NCBI RefSeq assembly: GCF_963921235.1
Contig: NC_086108.1
Coordinates: forward strand, 75,828,001-75,892,000
From: Mobula hypostoma
Taxonomy: Eukaryota
Length of the DNA stretch: 64,000 nt
Direction: 5' to 3'
A program made the translations under genes and the position numbers. The notes beneath the pieces are model-generated. The model was not told where the DNA came from. It did no database searches and worked only from the letters and a program-made list of their open reading frames with translations. Within the stretch, counting starts at the first letter, position 1. Each line of letters opens with the position of its first letter. Shown here piece by piece: positions 8,461 to 17,215 of the stretch.

Positions 8461-9934
8461 TTCTAGATAACAATCATTCAGATTTTCAGTATTTGTATTT
8501 CCATTTGTTTTCTGAGTCTCTAATGTGCATAGTTAGATTTCAACATACTTCTTACTTGCTTTTTCATGGGACTCTTCTCTCATAGCAAAAGCAGTAGAGT
8601 CCTTTGTCCACATGAGGACAAATTAGACTCATTTAATGCTACTAATAGTATCATTAGGAGAGGTTGAGATAAATTGTTTGAAGTGATGCGCTTCTATTTC
8701 ACCATGTCATGAAGTCAAATGTTACATGTGTTTTGTCAATGAGCTTGATTACAAGAGTTGCATTAGCAACTCTTTTTTACACAACAAAAAGAGACCATTG
8801 CATGCAGCTTAGTGTTATTATATCAATCTAAGGCTCTGCCACAGTCTTGCTCTATCAGTGATTCTTGGTTCAAATTTTAAACGATTTAAAGTTAACATTT
8901 TATTTTTGGAGCACCTATGGTCACTTATTTTTGTAGCACAGGAGTTATCTGGAATGTCCTGCTCCCTGCCACTTGGATTCTTTATCCCATTCCCATTCTG
9001 ACCTACCTGCATATGGCCTTTTGCACTGCAGTAATGTGTCCAAAGCTTGAGGAACTTTGGATACAATCATCTTCTGTCAGATCACAGTGCAACCTTCTGG
9101 AGTCAATATGGAATTCACCAACTTTATGTAACTCATTCTTTCAACCCATCTGTATCAGAAATGGCCACTTCTGCTTTCATTATTTTGGCCGTGATTTCCT
9201 CTTGGTATTAGTATAGTGTGGCCTGCTTGCCTAGTCCCACAGCCCAACTAATAGCTATACAGACAAATAAGTGTACTGAGCTCTGCCACACTAAATCATC
9301 TGAGCTCATCTCTATGTTTGCTACATTCCTACTCCATGTTCTTCGTTACTGAAAACTAACCTGTTTTCTTTCTTCACAATCAAGAAAAAATCTGTAGATG
9401 CTTAAAACCAAAGTAATACACACAAAATGTTTTCTCCCTTTCCCAGTTATGATGAAGGGTCTTAAAGGTCTTAAAAATGAACATTTTCTCCATCAGTAGA
9501 TACTGCCTGAACTGCTGTGTGTTCTCAACATTTTCTGGTTTTTATTTCAGATTTGCAGCATATGCAGAATTTTTGCTGATCATTCTGTTTGGAAATAAGA
9601 TGAAGAAAGTTGTGCTACAAAACAACAAGAATCTCATTTGTCCTCATTTTTGTAGCAGGAATTAATTTACTAATTTCTAAATAAATACAATTAAGTAGAA
9701 AATTTCTGCACTAGGTGGCAGTCTATTCTATAGCAACAACTTGTGTGAAGTTACGTTAATCTTGGCTTGAATCTCTATTACCAAATAATTGCGCCATTTG
9801 GGACTTTGATTTGATTCAAGTTCTTCCTTTTGGTTTTTTTCAATTTGTTCATTATATAAAAAAACTTTAATTCTTTTACTCCCAATTCAAAAATGGTTTT
9901 GATTCCATGGTCTTATCATTGTTTAATTTCATTA

Positions 9935-10140: not shown

Positions 10141-11197
10141 TAAGGGGTTGCTCCTCCACTCTGAGAGTAGCTTTGTCATGACAGAGGAAGAGGCCATGGA
10201 CCGATATGTCGGAAGGGGAATAGGGATAGGAATTAAAATGGTTGGTCACCAGGATATTTCACTTATTGTGGATGCAGCGGAGATGCTTGACAAAGCAGTC
10301 CCCCATTTTAAGTCCTATCTCACCAATGCAGAGGAGGCCACATTGGGAGCACTGGATAGTAGGCAATCCCAGCAGATTCACAGGTAAAGTGTTGCCTCAC
10401 TTGGAATAACTGTTTGGGGCCCTAATGGATGTCTGGGAGGAGGTGAATAGGCAAGTGTAGCATTTCTATCACTTGAAGGGATACATGCCAGGAGGGAGAT
10501 TAGTGGGGAGGGACAAATGGACAAGAGAATCACAGAGGGAGCGATTCCTACAGAAAGAGGAAAGTTGGGGGGGGAGGTAATGGTGTGTTTGGTGATAAGA
10601 TCCCACTGAAGATGGCAGAAGTTGCATAGAGCGATGTGTTGGATGTAGAGGTTCATGGGGTGGTAGGTGAGGACAAGAGGAACTCTATCCTGGATTGCAA
10701 CACACACAAAATGCTGGAGGAACTCAGCAGGCCAGTCCTGATGAAGGATCTCGGCTTGAAACATCAATTGCTTACTCTTTTCCATAGATATTGCCTGGCT
10801 GCTGAGTTCCTCCAGCATTTTGTGTGTGTTGCTTGGATTTCCAACTTCTGCAGATTTTTTCATGTTTGTACTTCTACCCCTGACAGTTTGTTTCCTGAGA
10901 TGGAGACAGATAGATTGAGAAAGGGGGGGGAGGTGTCAGGTTTGGACCAAGTGAATTTAAGGGCAGTGTGGAAGTTGGAAGCGAAGCTGATGAAGTTGAT
11001 GAGCACAACATGGGTGTATGAAGAAACATAAATGCAGTCCTCAATGTAGCCCAGAAAAAGTTGGGGAGCATTACCGAGTAAGGATAAGAATATGGACTGT
11101 TTCATGTAGCCAACAAAAATGCAGGAAAAGCTGGGGCCCATGCACGTGCCCGTGGCTACCCCTTGAGTTTGGAGAAAGTGGGAGGAACAAGAGGAGA
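10141..11197 (-). mobile_element. Penelope-like element, 3' part (RT motifs to GIY-YIG region), decayed; contains a small inverted PLE insertion at ~10697-10867
   Basis: Minus ORFs HFLQTQGVATGTCMGPSFSCIFVGY, FLGYIEDC, FHTALKFTWS, DRVPLVLTYHP. Confidence 0.85.
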
Positions 11198-11418
11198 TGC
11201 AGCGGCTGCTCAAACAAACTAAGCATTTGGAAACTATGCACGGGAAGGTTAATCCTGTGTGATGCATCTTCTGATCCAATCTAATAATAAGGTTTCAAAA
11301 GTCGAAAGTATTTAATCTTTTATTGAGAAACTAGCAAAACAAACAATCTTGAAGCAATAAAACTAATGCAACTAAAACTGGCGACATAACAAAATATATA
11401 GTTTTAGCTTATTAAACC

Positions 11419-11542
11419 TACTTGTTACATACAACTTTTAGGACACATTCTCCAGATACTTTTTAGGTAACTGTAGCCTTCAGCCAGGAGCAGATATCAT
11501 CAGGTGGTTCCCAACCTTCACAGAGTGTTTCGACCATTAACA
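11419..11542 (-). repeat. HERO 3' copy of ~124-bp terminal direct repeat
   Basis: Aligns by eye with 15496-15620 (shared CCTTCAGCCAGGAGCAGAT.TCATCAGGTGGTTCCCAACCTTCAC.GAGTGTTTCGACC.TTAAC). Confidence 0.92.
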
Positions 11543-11551
11543 ACGACACTC
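11490..11551 (-). ncRNA. Candidate permuted hammerhead-like ribozyme in HERO terminal repeat
   Basis: Minus RNA GAGUG-UC-GUUGUU-AAUGGUC-GAAA-CACUC-(13 nt)-AACCAC-CUGAUGA-UAUCU; stem III perfect, stem I 5/6, stem II weak. Confidence 0.45.
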
Positions 11552-11784
11552 CAGTTGGTGCGCTGACAGTGGTGGCCAAATCACTGCCCAACTGCTCCTG
11601 GCTTCCAGCTTCCCTCTTCTCGCCCACTCCCAATCCAACGAGAGGCTCGTTCTGCCTCTTCCCCCATCCTACGAGCTGCTTGTTTTTCACTCCTTTCATC
11701 CAGGCCGAGCTGACAACAACCGCCATGCTGATTTGACTGGGAAACCTCTGCAGCCGATCTCCACAGGGAACAACCATGCCTGCC

Positions 11785-12145
11785 TACCCAGAAGAAGTTT
11801 AAATCTTCCCTTCGTTGGGAGTTCAGTGGGACCCTTTCTCACTGCTCCCCCTCTGTGATCTCCGCCTCTCTCCAACTCTTCGACCAGATCCTGACCCAGA
11901 CCCGCTACCACAGCCACGTCCCCTTCCTGGGCACTGGGCACTGGGCACCTACCAGCCTTCTCCTTCCTACCCTCCCCCCACCTTCTTTATAGGGCCTCTG
12001 CTCCTTCCCTCTTCAGTCCTGATGAAGGGTTCCGGCCCGAAACATTGACTGATCATTTCCACAGATGCTGCCCGACCCGCTGAGTTCCTCCAGTGTGTTG
12101 TGAGTGTTGCTTTGACCCCAGCATCTGCAGAGTATTTTGTGTTTA
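11785..12145 (+). mobile_element. PLE terminal-repeat fragment inserted in the HERO endonuclease coding region
   Basis: 10-bp TSD CATGCCTGCC at 11775-11784 and 12146-12155; removing it restores CKDKEWQAWLFPVEIGCRGF. Confidence 0.9.
12014..12051 (+). ncRNA. Minimal type I hammerhead motif of PLE terminal repeat
   Basis: CAGTC-CTGATGA-A-GGG ttccgg CCC-GAAAC-ATT-GACTG: stems I and II intact, stem III ACGT decayed to ACAT. Confidence 0.75.
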
Positions 12146-15100
12146 CATGCCTGCCATTCCTTGTCTTTGCACTCCTGCACTAAGGGCTGGTACTTCAAGG
12201 CCTTTCTCTCGTGGGCCTCTTCCCATCCCTCCTCCCACGGCACAGTCAGCTCAACCAGAATTATTTTCCTCTCTTCAGTTGACAACAGTACAATGTCCGG
12301 ACGTAGGGTTGTGTGCACCACATCCGGGAACTGCAGCCTCCTTCCCACATCGACCCTTATCTCCCAGGACCTGGCCGTTAGCAGCAGATTGGGCTTTTGT
12401 TGTTTGGTTATGAAAGGCCTGGCTCCCTCTTTGATGAAGGTGATGGCCTTCCTCAGATCTGTGCCAGCCGTCCTCTTCTTGCATCTCTCTCGTTCTGGTG
12501 TGTCAGCAAGAGCCAGAAGCACCTTATCATGGCGCCACCTATACTGTCCTTGAGTTAGAGCTGTTTTGCATCCAGACTGTATATGAGCCAATGTCCCCTT
12601 TTGACCACAGAGCTTACATTTTGGGTCCTCCCTCATCCCCCATGTGTACAGATGTAATGGTAAAGGAAAGGTGTCATACACGGATCGCAAGAGGAAGGAG
12701 ATACGGAAGGGCTCCAGTCTCCATAACTCTGCCCATGAGATCTTGCGCTTAGGCAGATCCCATTTTGTCCAGGCACCCTGGGACCCTTGTTCCACTGCCT
12801 TTGACATCCGCTTCTCTTCCTCAGGGATCCATACTTCTGCCTGTATCATGTCTCGCCTGTTCCTTATGCTTGCGTTTCCCCACTGCTGGAAGTGAACTGA
12901 GCTGAGGCCTTGCCGCCTGATGCAGGGGTTGCCGATGATATCTCACAGCTTCAGAGAACACACTGCCTCCTCCACAGCTGCGTTGGCTGCCTACTTGCGC
13001 CCAGATCTGGTTGTAACGCCTGCTTGCTTTACCAAGACATCATTGGAATCTCTCAAGCTTCATAAGGTTCTGCATTTTGCCACCTTGAATTCCACCACAA
13101 CAGACGACAGGGAAAGCTGCAGTTGCCCAGATCGAATATAGAGGCCCACGGAAGAGAAGCTTGGGGGAACTCCCAACCATCTCCGCAGGTGCTTGTTGGT
13201 TTTCCTCTCGATGCCCTCAATGGTAGTCATGGGGAACTCATAAAGTGTGAAGACCCAGAGAAGCCTGGGCAGAATGCCGAATTGGTACAGCCAGGTCTTG
13301 AATTTACCCAGAAGTTGGGATTTGTCGATCTTCTTCAGCCATTCATCTGTCTGCTTCACGGCATCGGAGACATTGGCCCCATCTGTCAGTGACACATTAA
13401 ACCACTCTCGCAAGCATTTTATCGGGTTATCTTCGATGGAAGGGATGACCTCACCCTGAACTTTGAGGCTAAACTTGCTGGTAACTTTGCCCTTTCTGAT
13501 CACCATATACCTGGACTTCTTGGCCTTGAAGGACATCCTCACCCAAGTGGCTACATTACCCAGGGTTTCCAATACCCATCTTGCTTGGACATGTGACATG
13601 GTTGTTATAGTGATGTCGTCCATGAACCCTCGTAGAGCCGGCTGAACAATACCCGACTCCAGTGTCGGGCCGCGGGTGACATCTTCTGCTGCTGATAATA
13701 GGAGGTTCATTCCCATAATAAATAGGGTGGGGGAGATGGTGCACCCTGTTGGAATCCCCTTCTGGAGGTCCTGCCGCCTAGTTGTGAAATGGGCTGATGC
13801 AAGTCTGAGTTTGAATCCTCCTAGGTAGCTGGTGATCACGTCTCAAATAGCCACTGGGATGTAGTAGTGGTCAAGTCCTTCTAGGATGAGGTCATGTGGA
13901 ATAGACCCGTAGGCGTTCACGAGGTCGAACCAGACAACTGTTAGGTCGCCTTTTTTCTGCTTTGCCTCACAGATCAAATGGCTGATCATTGAGGTGTGTT
14001 GCAGACACCCTGAAAAGCCTGGAATACCGCCTTTCTGGATGGATGTGTTGATATAGCGGTTCTGCATCATGTAAGAAATCAGCCTTCTTGCGAGCACAGA
14101 AAAGAAAATCTTACGTTCGACATCTAGGAGAGAAATTGTCCTAAACTGGGCAATTGTGGAAGAATCCTCTTCCTTTGGAATAAAGCATCCCTCTGCCAAT
14201 TTCCAACATGATGGAATAGTACCTTTGGCCCAGATCTTTCTCATGACCTTCCACAGCCTCCGAAGAAGCTTTGAGCATTTCTTATACACCTTATAAGGTA
14301 TGACACTTGGACCTGGGGTAGCTGATGCTTTAGCTTTCCAGATGATGTCCTGGATTTCCTGCCATGTAGGCTCCTTCACATTCAGCTCAATTGATGGTTT
14401 TTCTGGTCTACGCACAGCCCAATTGCTTCCTAGTCCCTGACCCCTCTGTGGGTTACTGTGTGCCTCCTGCAGAAACTCCTCTACCTTTGGCTTCGAGCTG
14501 AATAGTATACCAGATTTTTGTCGGCCGAGATTAGTCCTGGTGAAGCTGAATGGATCTCTCACAAACTGCGCTCGCCTTTTCTCTTTCTTCCTTCTTTGCT
14601 GTCGTAGATGTTGCACAGCTTTTCCCACAGCATACTGGTTAAATCCTCAATACCCTCTTTTCGACCGGTGAGCTGGTTTTAAACCTCTTCTTAAGTGCCT
14701 TTAATTCGCCTCTCAAGCGACGAACCTCCTTTTCCCTCCTATTTGGTTGCCGCGGTAACTCGGGCTGGCTTCTCCACTCCATTGAGCCAAATCATTCCTT
14801 AGCTAGATTGTACGCTATGGCCGTGAGTGAGTCGATCTTTCTGTGTACTGGACCTGCTGAGGCAACTTCCAGGATGCCGTCTAGATCATCATCGAACTGC
14901 ATCCAGGCGACGTTGTCTGACGATCTAGGCCATTTGATCCTGTCTTTCCTTGACGAATGGATTGGGGTAGCCGAAGAGGAACTCACTTGGTCTGTTGTTT
15001 GGTGCTGAGGCGACTCAAGTGTGGAGAGATCTTCAGCTCTGTGGGGTGCTTCCCGGCTGGAATTCTCCTTCGTCTCACCACACACTAAGTCTGTGCGTTG

Positions 15101-15495
15101 TTCTTAGGTCACCATTGATCCACATCTAGATCTGCTCTTGAGCCCTGTGATGCTTTTGCAGACTTTCCCACAATGACACCTTACCATGAATTCCCCTCCG
15201 GTCAGTGTTGTTTGCTTTAGTTTCCTCGTAGTCGTGTTTCCTGTTCTGGTCGTTGCCGGTATGACAGTCCCGTTGAGTCTCTCATCCTCCCCCCTTCTTG
15301 GGAGACTCTGGGAGTATTGCTCTTCATGTTCAACTGTAGCTTGAGTGGTGCCCTCTTTCGAGTGCTGCCCACAAAGTTGCTAGTCTTGTGAGCCCGTGCC
15401 AGTCTTTCCTGGAGATCAGCTGTCTCTACAGCGTCACTGACCTTCCTCAGTTGCCATCCAGTCTTTCCTGGAAGTCACTGGTACAAACCAGAGAT

Positions 15496-15620
15496 TACTT
15501 CTTACATACACCTGTTAGGGTGCATTCTCCAGATACCTTATAAGGTAACCGTGGCCTTCAGCCAGGAGCAGATGTCATCAGGTGGTTCCCAACCTTCACC
15601 GAGTGTTTCGACCCTTAACC
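15496..15620 (-). repeat. HERO 5' copy of terminal direct repeat
   Basis: Direct repeat of 11419-11542. Confidence 0.92.
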
Positions 15621-15877
15621 TTTCTTCAACATAATTAAGCATAATTAAACCACTTCAAGTGGTGAAGCGATTTTAAGTGAAATTAAGTAGTCAATAAAAA
15701 AGATATAATTCCCGGCTCACTCCTCAGCTCAAACTCTAACTAACCTAAAACCAAAAGCATGAATACATAACTAAAAACTCTTCTTTTTTTACCTCGCTCC
15801 CCACTACTATCGTGACATAACAAGCGCACAACGTAAAATACAATGCAGATATAAAATAGATACATTTTACTCCTACA

Positions 15878-17215
15878 GGAATAATTGGTGTGGGTAAGGA
15901 CCAGTTCCGCCAGATGGAGGAGGATGGTGGTGGAGAGGAACTGGTTGGGTTTTTTGTTGAGAAAAAAATGGAGAGCTTTAAGGCCTTCTTGATGAGGGAT
16001 AGAAGTGTAAAGAGACTGGACATCCGTGGTGAAAATGAGGTGGCCAGTGCCAGGGAATCGAAAGGTTTTGAGGAGATCAGGAGCATGTGAAGTGTCACAG
16101 ATGTAGGTGGAAAGGGACTGAACTAAGAGGGATAGAATGGAATCAAGGTATGCAGACAGGAGTTCAGTGCAGCAGGACCAGACAGAGACAATGGATCTAC
16201 CCAGACGGTCAGATTTGTGGATATTGGGTAGGATGTAGAAATGAGCGGTGTAGGGTAAGGGAACTGTGAGATTGGTGGACGTGAATGGGTAATCTCCAGA
16301 GTTGATGAGGTTCGTGATTTTGCAGGAGACAATGGTCTAAAGGGATAAGTAAGAGGAGGTGTCTGAAAATTGCCTCAGCAAGGTAGGGGTCAGTACACCA
16401 CACTACAACAGCACCCCCTTTGTCTGGGAATCTGCTGGTAATGTTGGGATTGGTGCAGAGAGAGTGGTGGACAGTGCATTCAGCAGAGCTAAGGAGAGAG
16501 GAGGGCTGAAGTCAAGCGGGTTGATGTCTCATCAGCAATTAGAGATGGAAAGATCCAGAACAGGCAGAAAACAAAGTGATGTGTCCAAAAAGTGGAGGAG
16601 GGTTGGACACATGAGAAGGGGTCATCAGTGCAGGGTGGGGAATTCTTGCCAAAGAAATGAGTTCGGAGATGGAGGCAATGGGATAGAGCTCAGTGTCATG
16701 CGGGTGTGGATCTCACTGAGATGCGGGTGAAGGGGGACAAGTGAGGCCCTTGCTGAGGATAGAACACTCCAAATCAGAGAGGGGAGGGTTGGAGAAGGAT
16801 GAAGACACAGGAGACCGGGCGGAGGGTGCCTGTGACAGCTAGGAAGAACATGGCCTGGAGGTGGAGGTGGCCAAGGTAAGTGCTGGAGCCGGAGCTAGAG
16901 GCTGCATAATTCACGGTCTGAAGATGTCTCAGGTGATTGGAACTGAAACTAGAGATGGTAAGATCTGCGGTCTGGAGCCACCTGGGGTCACTGGAACTGG
17001 AGTAGGTGATGGTGGTATCTACAGTCTGGAGGTATCCAGGGCAATTGTAACCAGACTTGAGGTCAGCAGGATCTGCAACCTAGAGTCATCTGTTCAAGTC
17101 AAGATCTGAGGGACCATGGTCTGGAGGCAGCCCCAGCCATAAGAAATGAAGTTGGAGATGGCTGAATCCACAGTCTGGAATGGTCTGATAGAATCGCAGT
17201 CCAAGCGGTAAGTGT
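15878..17215 (-). mobile_element. Penelope-like element, 5' part (N-terminal region and start of RT), continuation of 10141-11197
   Basis: Resumes the interrupted sequence (GGACCAGTTCCGCCAG); minus-strand remnants of ADKGGAVVVW (CACACTACAACAGCACCCCCTTTGTCTG at ~16400-16427). Confidence 0.75.
16891..17100. repeat. Degenerate 54-bp tandem repeat, about 4 units
   Basis: Units start at 16891, 16945, 16999 and 17053; shared (A)TCT..GGTCTGGAG...GGAACT pattern. Confidence 0.6.

What the first reader, a model, noticed from the sequence alone, without database searches (positions are those of the whole stretch)
11419..15620. HERO retrotransposon bracketed by terminal repeats carrying a permuted hammerhead-like ribozyme
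Seen: the element's 3'-terminal ~124 bp (11419-11542) recur directly upstream of its 5' UTR (15496-15620). On the sense (minus) strand the 3' copy reads GAGUG-UC^GUUGUU-AAUGGUC-GAAA-CACUC-13 nt-AACCAC-CUGAUGA-UAUCU. It has the hammerhead core motifs (GUC site, GAAA, CUGAUGA), a perfect stem III (GAGUG/CACUC) and a stem I (GUUGUU/AACCAC; the 5' copy has GGUU, which repairs the mismatch). The three strands come in an order that is not type I, II or III: the CUGAUGA strand is last and stem I links directly to stem II. The 5' copy starts at the position equivalent to 11542, 2 nt from the predicted cut (11545/11544). Known: R2 elements use 5' HDV-like ribozymes; PLEs and retrozymes use hammerheads in terminal repeats. 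Inference: this HERO family is processed out of tandem or read-through transcripts by a pseudoknotted hammerhead variant. I am not aware of this being described. Caveats: stem II is weak (Y.C mismatch at 10.1-11.1, then AUC/GGU) and a GGUU/AACC hairpin competes with stem I.
Basis: partly seen in the sequence, partly recalled or inferred. Interest (0 to 1): 0.85.

Follow-up and report, generated by a model that had tools for sequence, protein, structure and literature searches.

The report
Split-core hammerhead in retrotransposon tails
A widespread group of animal jumping genes carries in its tail a conserved RNA fold with all the catalytic letters of the hammerhead self-cutting RNA, wired in an unusual order, which likely cuts and rejoins the element's transcript into a circle that would then be copied slightly more than once around.

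Summary
The motif lies in the 3' UTR of an R2-group (HERO-like) non-LTR retrotransposon and of 58 of 74 related elements from metagenomes. Core letters are near-invariant, and the helices covary. Stem II, with the canonical G10.1-C11.1 pair, comes from an upstream strand; the bases after CUGANGA form an extra helix (P0) beside a hairpin (P1), a linker-free junction inserted between A9 and G10.1. The core order matches the published type-SGC permutation (PMC10085705), but that paper assumes this block is never interrupted. In this genome 59 of 66 long copies run seamlessly into an upstream unit; their 5' ends are scattered, not clustered at the cut, so the window's 5' start there is probably chance, and its ribozyme is decayed. 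Seamless junctions, target duplications around whole composites and one circularly permuted copy favour a circular or end-clamped RNA template. Cleavage is untested. Two earlier scan notes on other pieces of this genome called the motif non-catalytic; the upstream stem II answers their objection. No report found in ten literature searches.

The parts
11419..15495 (-). One unit of an R2-group (restriction-like endonuclease) non-LTR retrotransposon, HERO-like; about 3715 bp without the insert; ORF broken by stops and frameshifts
15496..15620 (-). Partial upstream unit (last 124 nt of the element), starting 2 nt after the predicted cut; lacks P0a, P1, the stem II 5' strand and the cleavage triplet, so it cannot form the whole ribozyme
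11589..11603 (-). P0 5' strand (last codons of the ORF)
11565..11588 (-). Hairpin P1 (7 bp; ORF stop codon at 11583-11581; self-complementary hexamer at 11578-11573 in the loop)
11560..11564 (-). Stem II 5' strand (positions 10.1-10.5); decayed in this copy, three of five pairs broken including G10.1
11554..11558 (-). Pseudoknot X 5' strand (links the distal ends of stems II and I)
11545..11551 (-). Stem III 5' strand, U16.1 and H17; predicted cut between 11545 and 11544
11539..11544 (-). Stem I 5' strand (one mismatch in this copy)
11523..11536 (-). Stem II 3' strand (11536-11532), GAAA (11531-11528), stem III 3' strand (11527-11523)
11511..11515 (-). Pseudoknot X 3' strand
11497..11509 (-). 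Stem I 3' strand (11509-11504) and CUGAUGA (11503-11497)
11482..11496 (-). P0 3' strand, directly after A9
11419..11447 (-). 3'-terminal hairpin, UGUAU motif and fixed 3' end (likely reverse-transcription start), 125 nt after the cut; no poly(A)
11785..12145 (+). Foreign 361-bp insert in the ORF, absent from other copies; not part of the system

Best explanation
The 3' UTR of this retrotransposon family holds a conserved, covarying RNA fold with the complete hammerhead core, which likely self-cleaves and likely turns read-through transcripts into a unit-length circular (or end-clamped) RNA that would be reverse-transcribed from an internal start for slightly more than one lap. Shown by comparison: strand order P0a - hairpin P1 - IIa - Xa - IIIa - UH (cut) - Ia - IIb - GAAA - IIIb - Xb - Ib - CUGANGA - P0b, so A9 is not joined to G10.1; P0 and P1 leave the core at that step with no linker bases. 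Shown in the genome: long copies are a full unit preceded seamlessly by a variable piece of the previous unit. Inferred: (1) cleavage after H17 (about 0.85); (2) a copy whose upstream piece holds a whole ribozyme (31 of 66) is cut at both sites, releasing a monomer from any read-through transcript; (3) the part before the cut is tied to the part after it by about 31 bp (P0, II, X, III), so the two ends of the monomer would rebuild one ribozyme and be ligated, or be held close enough for the RT to cross the nick; (4) target-primed RT starts 125 nt after the cut, passes its own start and usually stops within a few hundred bases, which regenerates the terminal redundancy in every round (steps 2-4 together about 0.6 given cleavage). 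The window copy is a dead, decayed product of this process.
For: Fold: 36-pair model, 91% of 1035 cells paired, 31 of 36 pairs with changes on both sides, slid controls 34-42% (30 hand-picked rows). Upstream stem II 5/5 paired in 26 of 32 non-redundant loci against 14% in partner swaps, 0 of 20000 permutations as high for five Watson-Crick pairs; P0 of 7 bp or more in 20 of 30 against 10%; X of 5 bp or more in 21 of 32 against 10% (none of these helices was used to select loci). Linker-free P0/P1/II junction in 29 of 42 against 11%. Catalytic signature at positions whose letters were not scored: U16.1 57 of 58, position 17 not G 57 of 58, G10.1 54 of 58, C11.1 51 of 58, N7 and the base after A9 free (controls 0 of 74 reverse complements, 1 of 65 ORF stretches). 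Spread over the whole protein tree and kept up to about 780 nt downstream in long UTRs. Template: 59 of 66 copies reaching the unit start continue upstream, 36 pass the cut, up to 1.5 units; 57 of 57 junctions gap-free while 26 of 51 true 3' ends carry extra repeat units; no poly(A) in 53 of 53; target duplications of about 34-64 bp enclose the composite in 4 of 44; C68a is a circularly permuted copy of one lap plus about 90 nt with an 11-bp duplication; stop rate 3.7 per kb in the first 420 nt of the second lap against 0.5-0.8 per kb in the first lap; ORF restarts after the 3' UTR in 10 of 41 metagenome contigs. Precedent: type-SGC ribozymes with the same I-II helix cleave (PMC10085705); circular intermediates are proposed for Penelope-like elements (PMC6765202).
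Against: No cleavage, ligation or circular RNA was observed; RNA-run contigs were uninformative and some span the cut. No natural hammerhead with helices inserted between A9 and G10.1 turned up in the papers read, and Eckert et al. assume that block is never interrupted, so activity is an extrapolation. 5' ends are not significantly enriched at the cut (5 vs 2.9 within 10 nt, P=0.17; 3 vs 1.0 within 3 nt, P=0.075). 40 of 44 composites show no target duplication. Seven other junction-bearing copies have non-canonical 3' ends without a duplication and without a one-lap length, so C68a is one case. The stop rate falls back to 0.8 per kb beyond -300, which also fits transcription starts in the upstream unit. 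13 of 42 non-redundant loci lack the perfect junction and one long contig (L115) lacks the motif. In a Penelope element a real hammerhead was dispensable for insertion in vitro and uncut RNA was the main template (PMC11167929). Copies were sampled from top-ranked BLAST lists, not a census. Covariation counts are not corrected for relatedness.
Confidence: 0.52

Rival explanations
1. The motif is an active hammerhead, but the insertion template is an uncut, linear read-through RNA from partial-tandem copies (a pseudo-LTR arrangement as in Penelope-like elements); the redundancy would be renewed by homology-guided strand transfer or from master arrays, and cleavage would serve translation, RNP maturation or turnover.
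For: 5' ends scattered with a raised stop rate between +119 and -300 and baseline beyond; small clusters near -250 and -140 in both laps could be transcription starts; direct precedent in the anole Penelope element, where RT starts internally and cleavage is not needed in vitro (PMC11167929); ribozymes can aid cap-independent translation (PMC13725137); the ORF stop lies inside P0a/P1 in this family, so ribosomes could gate folding.
Against: Extensions would erode each round; no array of two or more complete units was seen among the junction-bearing copies fetched, apart from C1a; the permuted one-lap copy C68a with a target duplication is unlikely from such a template.
Confidence: 0.3
2. The fold is a non-cleaving recognition structure for the element's reverse transcriptase that keeps hammerhead-like letters (the reading of two earlier scan notes on this genome).
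For: P0 does hold the strand that a standard type-SGC ribozyme would use for stem II; the fold lies near the 3' end, where R2-group proteins bind RNA (established knowledge); no cut-site signal in genomic 5' ends.
Against: Stem II exists through the upstream strand with G10.1-C11.1. Avoidance of G at position 17 while C, U and A alternate (57 of 58), free N7, fixed A15.1-U16.1 and the I-II pseudoknot are the rules of hammerhead catalysis, kept across proteins of about 35% identity. A separate conserved terminal hairpin plus UGUAU motif is available as a docking signal.
Confidence: 0.13
3. Cleavage defines the 5' end of a linear RNA (as the HDV-like ribozyme does in R2), and longer or shorter 5' repeats are second insertions or truncations.
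For: Three of 66 copies, including the window's, start 0-2 nt after the cut; slight, non-significant excess.
Against: 36 of 66 copies run past the cut seamlessly; junctions never carry the 3' repeats that true insertion ends often have (0 of 57 vs 26 of 51); duplications enclose composites that extend to -88, -251 and -253; none of 26 non-tandem 3'-picked copies starts between +40 and -10.
Confidence: 0.05

Closest known systems
Type-SGC non-circularly permuted hammerhead ribozymes (HRIMA-1 and variants; Eckert et al. 2023, PMC10085705)
   Same: Core blocks in the order S, G, C; short linker from stem I to stem II; a helix joining the distal sides of stems I and II; full core conservation.
   Different: Here the stem II 5' strand lies upstream of the cleavage block, not after CUGANGA; P0 and hairpin P1 are inserted at A9/G10.1, breaking the block that paper treats as uninterruptible. 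Theirs come from metatranscriptomes near hairpin ribozymes; no mention of HERO, fish, vertebrates or reverse transcriptase in the main text, nor of Danio, Branchiostoma or reverse transcriptase in the one supplement held.
Penelope-like elements with hammerheads in pseudo-LTRs (PMC6765202, PMC11167929)
   Same: Partial-tandem insertions, a hammerhead in the repeated part, internal start of reverse transcription, proposed circular or multimeric templates, palindromic loops.
   Different: Different enzyme class: R2-like RT with a restriction-like endonuclease, no GIY-YIG domain in 35 of 35 relatives. Penelope hammerheads are mostly minimal type I; this one is a large pseudoknotted split-core form.
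R2 non-LTR retrotransposons with a 5' HDV-like ribozyme (PMC13708176, PMC13580325)
   Same: Closest solved proteins (9nl3, 9dou, E about 1e-47); single ORF; a ribozyme that would free the RNA from a co-transcript.
   Different: Ribozyme class and position (3' UTR, hammerhead); no fixed target (varied flanks); head-to-tail redundancy; 5' ends not set by the cut.
HERO clade of restriction-like-endonuclease elements (named in PMC7650587, PMC13708176)
   Same: Domain layout; relatives in teleosts, lancelets and bivalves, in line with the listed HERO hosts (lancelet, pufferfish, zebrafish).
   Different: No reference HERO sequence was available, so membership is untested; no ribozyme or terminal redundancy was mentioned for HERO in the passages read.
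Retrozymes (PMC4918200, PMC7229834 seen as listings; passages of bioRxiv 10.64898/2026.07.22.740005)
   Same: Hammerhead-flanked units thought to pass through circular RNA.
   Different: Retrozymes are non-coding and non-autonomous with type I or III hammerheads; this element encodes its own RT and endonuclease.

Membership tests
Hammerhead ribozyme | Core CUGANGA, GAA, A15.1-U16.1, H17 | tested here: met
   every core position 55-58 of 58; N7 free; 16.1 and 17 not scored yet U 57 of 58 and non-G 57 of 58 (core letters C3-A9 and G12-A15.1 were partly demanded by the scan)
Hammerhead ribozyme | Stems I, II, III flanking the core, with covariation and G10.1-C11.1 | tested here: met
   (stem II through the upstream strand)
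Hammerhead ribozyme | Tertiary contact between stems I and II | tested here: met
   helix X, 86.5% paired, 4 of 5 pairs covary; 21 of 32 vs 10% in swaps
Hammerhead ribozyme | CUGANGA directly continuous with stem II (at most 1-2 extra nt, per PMC10085705) | tested here: not met
   A9 runs into P0; G10.1 follows hairpin P1
Hammerhead ribozyme | Site-specific self-cleavage after H17 | not testable with these tools
   only assembled contigs were available
Type-SGC hammerhead | 5'-3' order S, G, C of the core blocks | tested here: met
Type-SGC hammerhead | Stem II 5' strand follows CUGANGA at the 3' end | tested here: not met
   first pair formed in 3 of 32 and 1 of 28; not filed as a member
HERO clade | Single ORF with N-terminal zinc-finger-like motif, RT, zinc knuckle and restriction-like endonuclease | tested here: met
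   (N-terminal CxC...H motif read by eye; endonuclease stretch aligns weakly to R2, domain E 0.12)
HERO clade | No fixed target sequence (recalled as a HERO trait) | tested here: met
   unrelated flanks in 95 5' ends and 53 3' ends
HERO clade | RT phylogeny groups with Repbase HERO references | not testable with these tools
   no reference sequences; none of the cluster names says HERO
R2 clade | 28S rDNA target and 5' HDV-like ribozyme | tested here: not met
   varied flanks; no Rfam HDV or rRNA hit
Penelope-like elements | GIY-YIG endonuclease and telomerase-like RT | tested here: not met
Penelope-like elements | Partial-tandem insertions (works-like feature) | tested here: met
   59 of 66
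Retrozymes | Non-coding, non-autonomous unit | tested here: not met
   RT-endonuclease ORF

The most novel reading that the evidence does not exclude
HERO-like LINEs are autonomous R2-group retrotransposons that replicate through a ribozyme-made circular RNA: a new hammerhead topology, whose catalytic core is opened at A9/G10.1 into a linker-free helical junction, cuts the transcript at two copies and re-ligates the monomer because about 31 bp tie the two ends; the protein primes internally, runs more than one lap and so rebuilds its own terminal repeat, while the palindromic P1 loop dimerises two RNAs by a kissing contact.
Probability: 0.42. Interest if true: 0.93.

Novelty: new variant of a known kind. 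Interest (0 to 1): 0.84.

Why it matters
If it cleaves, this is a natural hammerhead outside the six block orders thought to be possible (PMC10085705), conserved across a clade of animal retrotransposons and invisible to Rfam, so ribozyme surveys have likely missed a large genomic class. It would be a hammerhead in the R2 group, where only HDV-like ribozymes are described in the reviews read. The genomic anatomy gives a direct test of an open question, how partial-tandem retroelements renew their terminal repeats and whether a circular RNA is the template, in a second, unrelated enzyme lineage that seems to have converged on the Penelope strategy. R2-group proteins are being developed for gene insertion (PMC13708176); one that primes internally on a stable circular RNA, and a hammerhead with a free two-helix port at its core, would both be useful parts.

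Tried and rejected
Clustering of 5' ends at the cut: not significant. Second, independent insertion as the source of the 5' repeat: rejected (the window's host repeat is continuous across the site with about 8-10 nt lost). G10.1-to-A as an active subfamily variant: 35 of 117 copies, at a CpG, unlinked to subfamily markers, so decay. Rfam: no hammerhead in the window stretch or in 14 related loci. RNA evidence: all 23 listed runs are contigs; four guessed-RNA runs laid on a tandem junction gave no joints and no usable ends. Protein-based scan of viral contigs: no relative. Energy folding of natural copy L007 recovers P0 (0.72-1.0) and upstream stem II (about 0.8) but not stems I and III, which cross them and cannot be predicted with nested folding. 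The protein tree is the quick version, not the finished one; its 'none' labels were partly wrong because five of those loci carry the motif further downstream. The contig look-up tool for named hosts was closed, so the metagenome loci have no host names; this genome cannot be searched with an RNA model, so non-autonomous carriers were not surveyed. Not held: PMC4509812 (variant hammerheads, 2015), PubMed 11454858 (extra nucleotide in a viroid core; only its title seen), PMC5785218. Fell et al. 2025, the original HERO papers and Repbase were not seen; any of these, and the alignment files of PMC10085705 if they are not in the one supplement held, could bear on novelty.
Full report
Observation. 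The element on the minus strand is a decayed non-LTR retrotransposon: RT and zinc-binding fragments, 171 longer relatives at E up to 1e-10 from teleosts, lancelets, bivalves and unnamed assemblies, and a profile of 35 of them matches R2 proteins best among solved structures. One unit is about 3715 bp; the window copy carries a 361-bp foreign insert. The genome (3.48 Gb, host not identified) gave 1207 candidates for the 3' end, 40 scored. The name HERO fits the domain layout and host range but could not be tested against references.

What is already known. The order cleavage block, GAAA block, CUGANGA block is the type-SGC non-circular permutation, found in metatranscriptomes and shown to cleave (PMC10085705; I read the abstract, introduction, sections 7, 13, 14, 15, the first part of 18, and searched the main text and the one supplement held). 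That paper assumes CUGANGA and its adjacent stem II strand cannot be separated.

The motif is clade-wide. A strict parser (core, stems I and III) hit 37 of the 59 with at least 200 nt downstream, 2 of 1180 shuffles and 0 of 59 reverse complements. A helix-first scan over 1000 nt found it in 58 of 74 (45 non-redundant), with 0 of 74 and 1 of 65 in controls. Of the 16 misses, ten have under 220 nt of downstream sequence, three score just under the cut-off and were found by the other parsers, two end before the distance at which their nearest relatives carry it, and one (L115) lacks it. It occurs on all main branches of a quick tree of 60 C-terminal pieces.

The real fold. The bases before GAAA instead pair with a strand about 20 nt upstream of the cleavage triplet: 92% paired, 30 cells with changes on both sides against 7 in shuffles; 26 of 32 loci 5/5 against 14% in partner swaps. 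The bases after CUGANGA pair with a strand further upstream (P0; 7 bp or more in 20 of 30 against 10%), and between P0a and the stem II strand lies hairpin P1. In 29 of 42 non-redundant loci P0a, P1 and stem II follow each other with no spare base, against 11% in swaps. A fifth helix, X, joins the distal sides of stems II and I (21 of 32 against 10%), as in type-SGC ribozymes. The six-helix model pairs 91% of 1035 cells with both-sided changes at 31 of 36 pairs; slid controls give 34-42% (30 rows chosen by me from the window and the 79 loci, one of them mis-trimmed; relatedness not corrected). At positions whose letters the scan did not score, U16.1 holds in 57 of 58, position 17 avoids G in 57 of 58 while U, A and C alternate, G10.1 holds in 54 and C11.1 in 51, and N7 and the base after A9 are free. 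These are the rules of hammerhead catalysis, which is why I infer cleavage (about 0.85). From established hammerhead structure (recalled), the A9-G12 pair stacks on G10.1-C11.1; P0 and P1 could stack on each other and exchange strands at that step like a four-way junction. That geometry is inference. The P1 loop holds a self-complementary hexamer in 19 of 29 loci, eight different ones, against 17% in shuffled loops, which suggests a kissing-loop dimer. Two earlier scan notes on this genome (e1-8034208, e1-7941993) saw P0 and concluded that no ribozyme can form; the upstream stem II removes that objection, though I could not see their loci.

The window copy. Its 3' motif has three of five stem II pairs broken, including G10.1, and one mismatch each in stem I and P0; 13 of 41 parsed copies in the genome keep core and stems I-III, and the commonest losses are at CpG sites, unlinked to subfamily markers. 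Its 5' repeat lacks the upstream half. It is very likely inactive.

Genomic anatomy. From top-ranked hits of four 5'-region searches and stretches fetched around them I obtained 95 distinct 5' ends; after dropping three rows (two duplicates, one internal deletion), 66 reach the unit start. Of these 59 continue into the 3' end of a previous unit, 36 pass the predicted cut by more than 10 nt and 31 hold a whole upstream ribozyme; 5 stop within 10 nt of the cut against 2.9 expected (P=0.17). Extensions reach 1.5 units. All 57 junctions examined are gap-free, whereas 26 of 51 true 3' ends carry extra short repeats, and none of 53 has poly(A). Target duplications of about 34-64 bp enclose the whole composite in 4 of 44 copies with both ends (L080, L299, L300, and L585 with a 16-nt offset); the rest show none, and the window's own site lost about 8-10 nt. 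So composites are single insertions copied from a continuous template. Stops are about five times as frequent in the first 420 nt of the second lap (47 in 12.7 kb) as in the first lap (4 in 8.5 kb and 13 in 17.1 kb, 26 copies), and return to 0.8 per kb beyond -300. Copy C68a runs from unit position 1487 round to 1576, one lap plus about 90 nt, with an 11-bp duplication; C1a has its canonical last bases joined to position 100 of a following unit. Seven other junction-bearing copies end at odd places without duplications and are not informative. In 10 of 41 metagenome contigs with enough sequence the ORF restarts 262-902 nt after its end, so the head-to-tail junction is a clade trait.

Mechanism. 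I commit to a ribozyme-made circle or end-clamped monomer: two cuts release one unit from a read-through transcript; about 31 bp in this family (P0 15, II 5, X 5, III 6) tie the part before the cut to the part after it, so the ends would rebuild a ribozyme and ligate, or let the RT cross the nick; priming at the fixed site 125 nt downstream and running past the start renews the redundancy. Fold and anatomy are shown; cleavage, ligation and internal priming are inferred (0.52 overall). The main rival (0.30) is an uncut linear read-through template, with direct precedent in a Penelope element whose hammerhead is real but dispensable in vitro (PMC11167929, abstract and passages). A non-cleaving docking fold gets 0.13, and cleavage as the 5'-end maker 0.05.

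Novelty. Ten full-text searches found no paper joining HERO, retrotransposon and hammerhead (0 hits) and no later use of type-SGC. Passages were read in PMC13725137, PMC10162972, PMC6765202, PMC3088659 (core insertions listed after A6, at 13 and near C3, none a helix at A9 in the 12 of 17 passages shown), bioRxiv 10.64898/2026.07.22.740005 (61) and 10.64898/2026.09.16.752053 (63), PMC6155905, PMC13580325, PMC5678591, PMC7650587 and PMC13708176. PMC13725137 notes that variants with additional helices have been reported; one of its three sources was not identified and a 2015 variant paper was not held, so a precedent for an extra helix at this step is not excluded. Subscription journals and Repbase were not searched. 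Rfam misses the motif. Verdict: a new variant of the hammerhead, working like type-SGC but failing one of its defining features, in a retrotransposon group where no hammerhead was found in print here; interest 0.84.

Noticed in passing
window 12014-12051 (+), also 10733-10764 and 9443-9462: Minimal type-I-like hammerhead letters (CUGAUGA, short hairpin, GAAAC) inside the 361-bp insert and in nearby repeats (D5 and D7); resembles the hammerhead repeat of Penelope-like elements (recalled, no Rfam or Pfam hit).
   Followed up: no
window 15740-16336 and 10860-11294 (-): Two ORF pieces that look like halves of one Penelope-type RT (by eye, recalled; no Pfam hit), split by an older 400-bp repeat into which the element then inserted: a three-level nest.
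   Followed up: partly
window 15458-15485 and 15399-15418 (-); L084, L088, L095, L100, L103 just after the unit junction: A conserved hairpin with a GAAAG loop and apparent compensatory changes at the start of the 5' UTR, duplicated 59 nt later in this family (D17). On a circle it would sit directly 3' of the RT start and could be part of the protein-binding site.
   Followed up: no
own-genome copies, 5' ends near -250 and -140 relative to the cut: Small clusters of 5' ends in both laps (second lap: 4 at -253 to -246 and 6 at -147 to -130; first lap: 3 and 3); possible transcription starts or RT pause sites; not tested formally.
   Followed up: partly
L132, L143, L147, L154, L155: Branches with long 3' UTRs keep the same fold about 430-780 nt after the ORF end, so overlap with the stop codon is not universal; their P1 loops that were parsed lack the palindrome.
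   Followed up: partly
P0102, P0104, P0109, P0115: Some relatives carry an extra PF08719 domain (recalled as NADAR), a possible captured accessory domain.
   Followed up: no
L080, L299, L300, L585: When target duplications occur they are long (about 34-64 bp), while most insertions have none; unusual spread for one endonuclease.
   Followed up: partly
L115: A circular 3824-nt contig of a relative with no detectable motif and no Rfam hit; a candidate for a different or lost ribozyme.
   Followed up: partly
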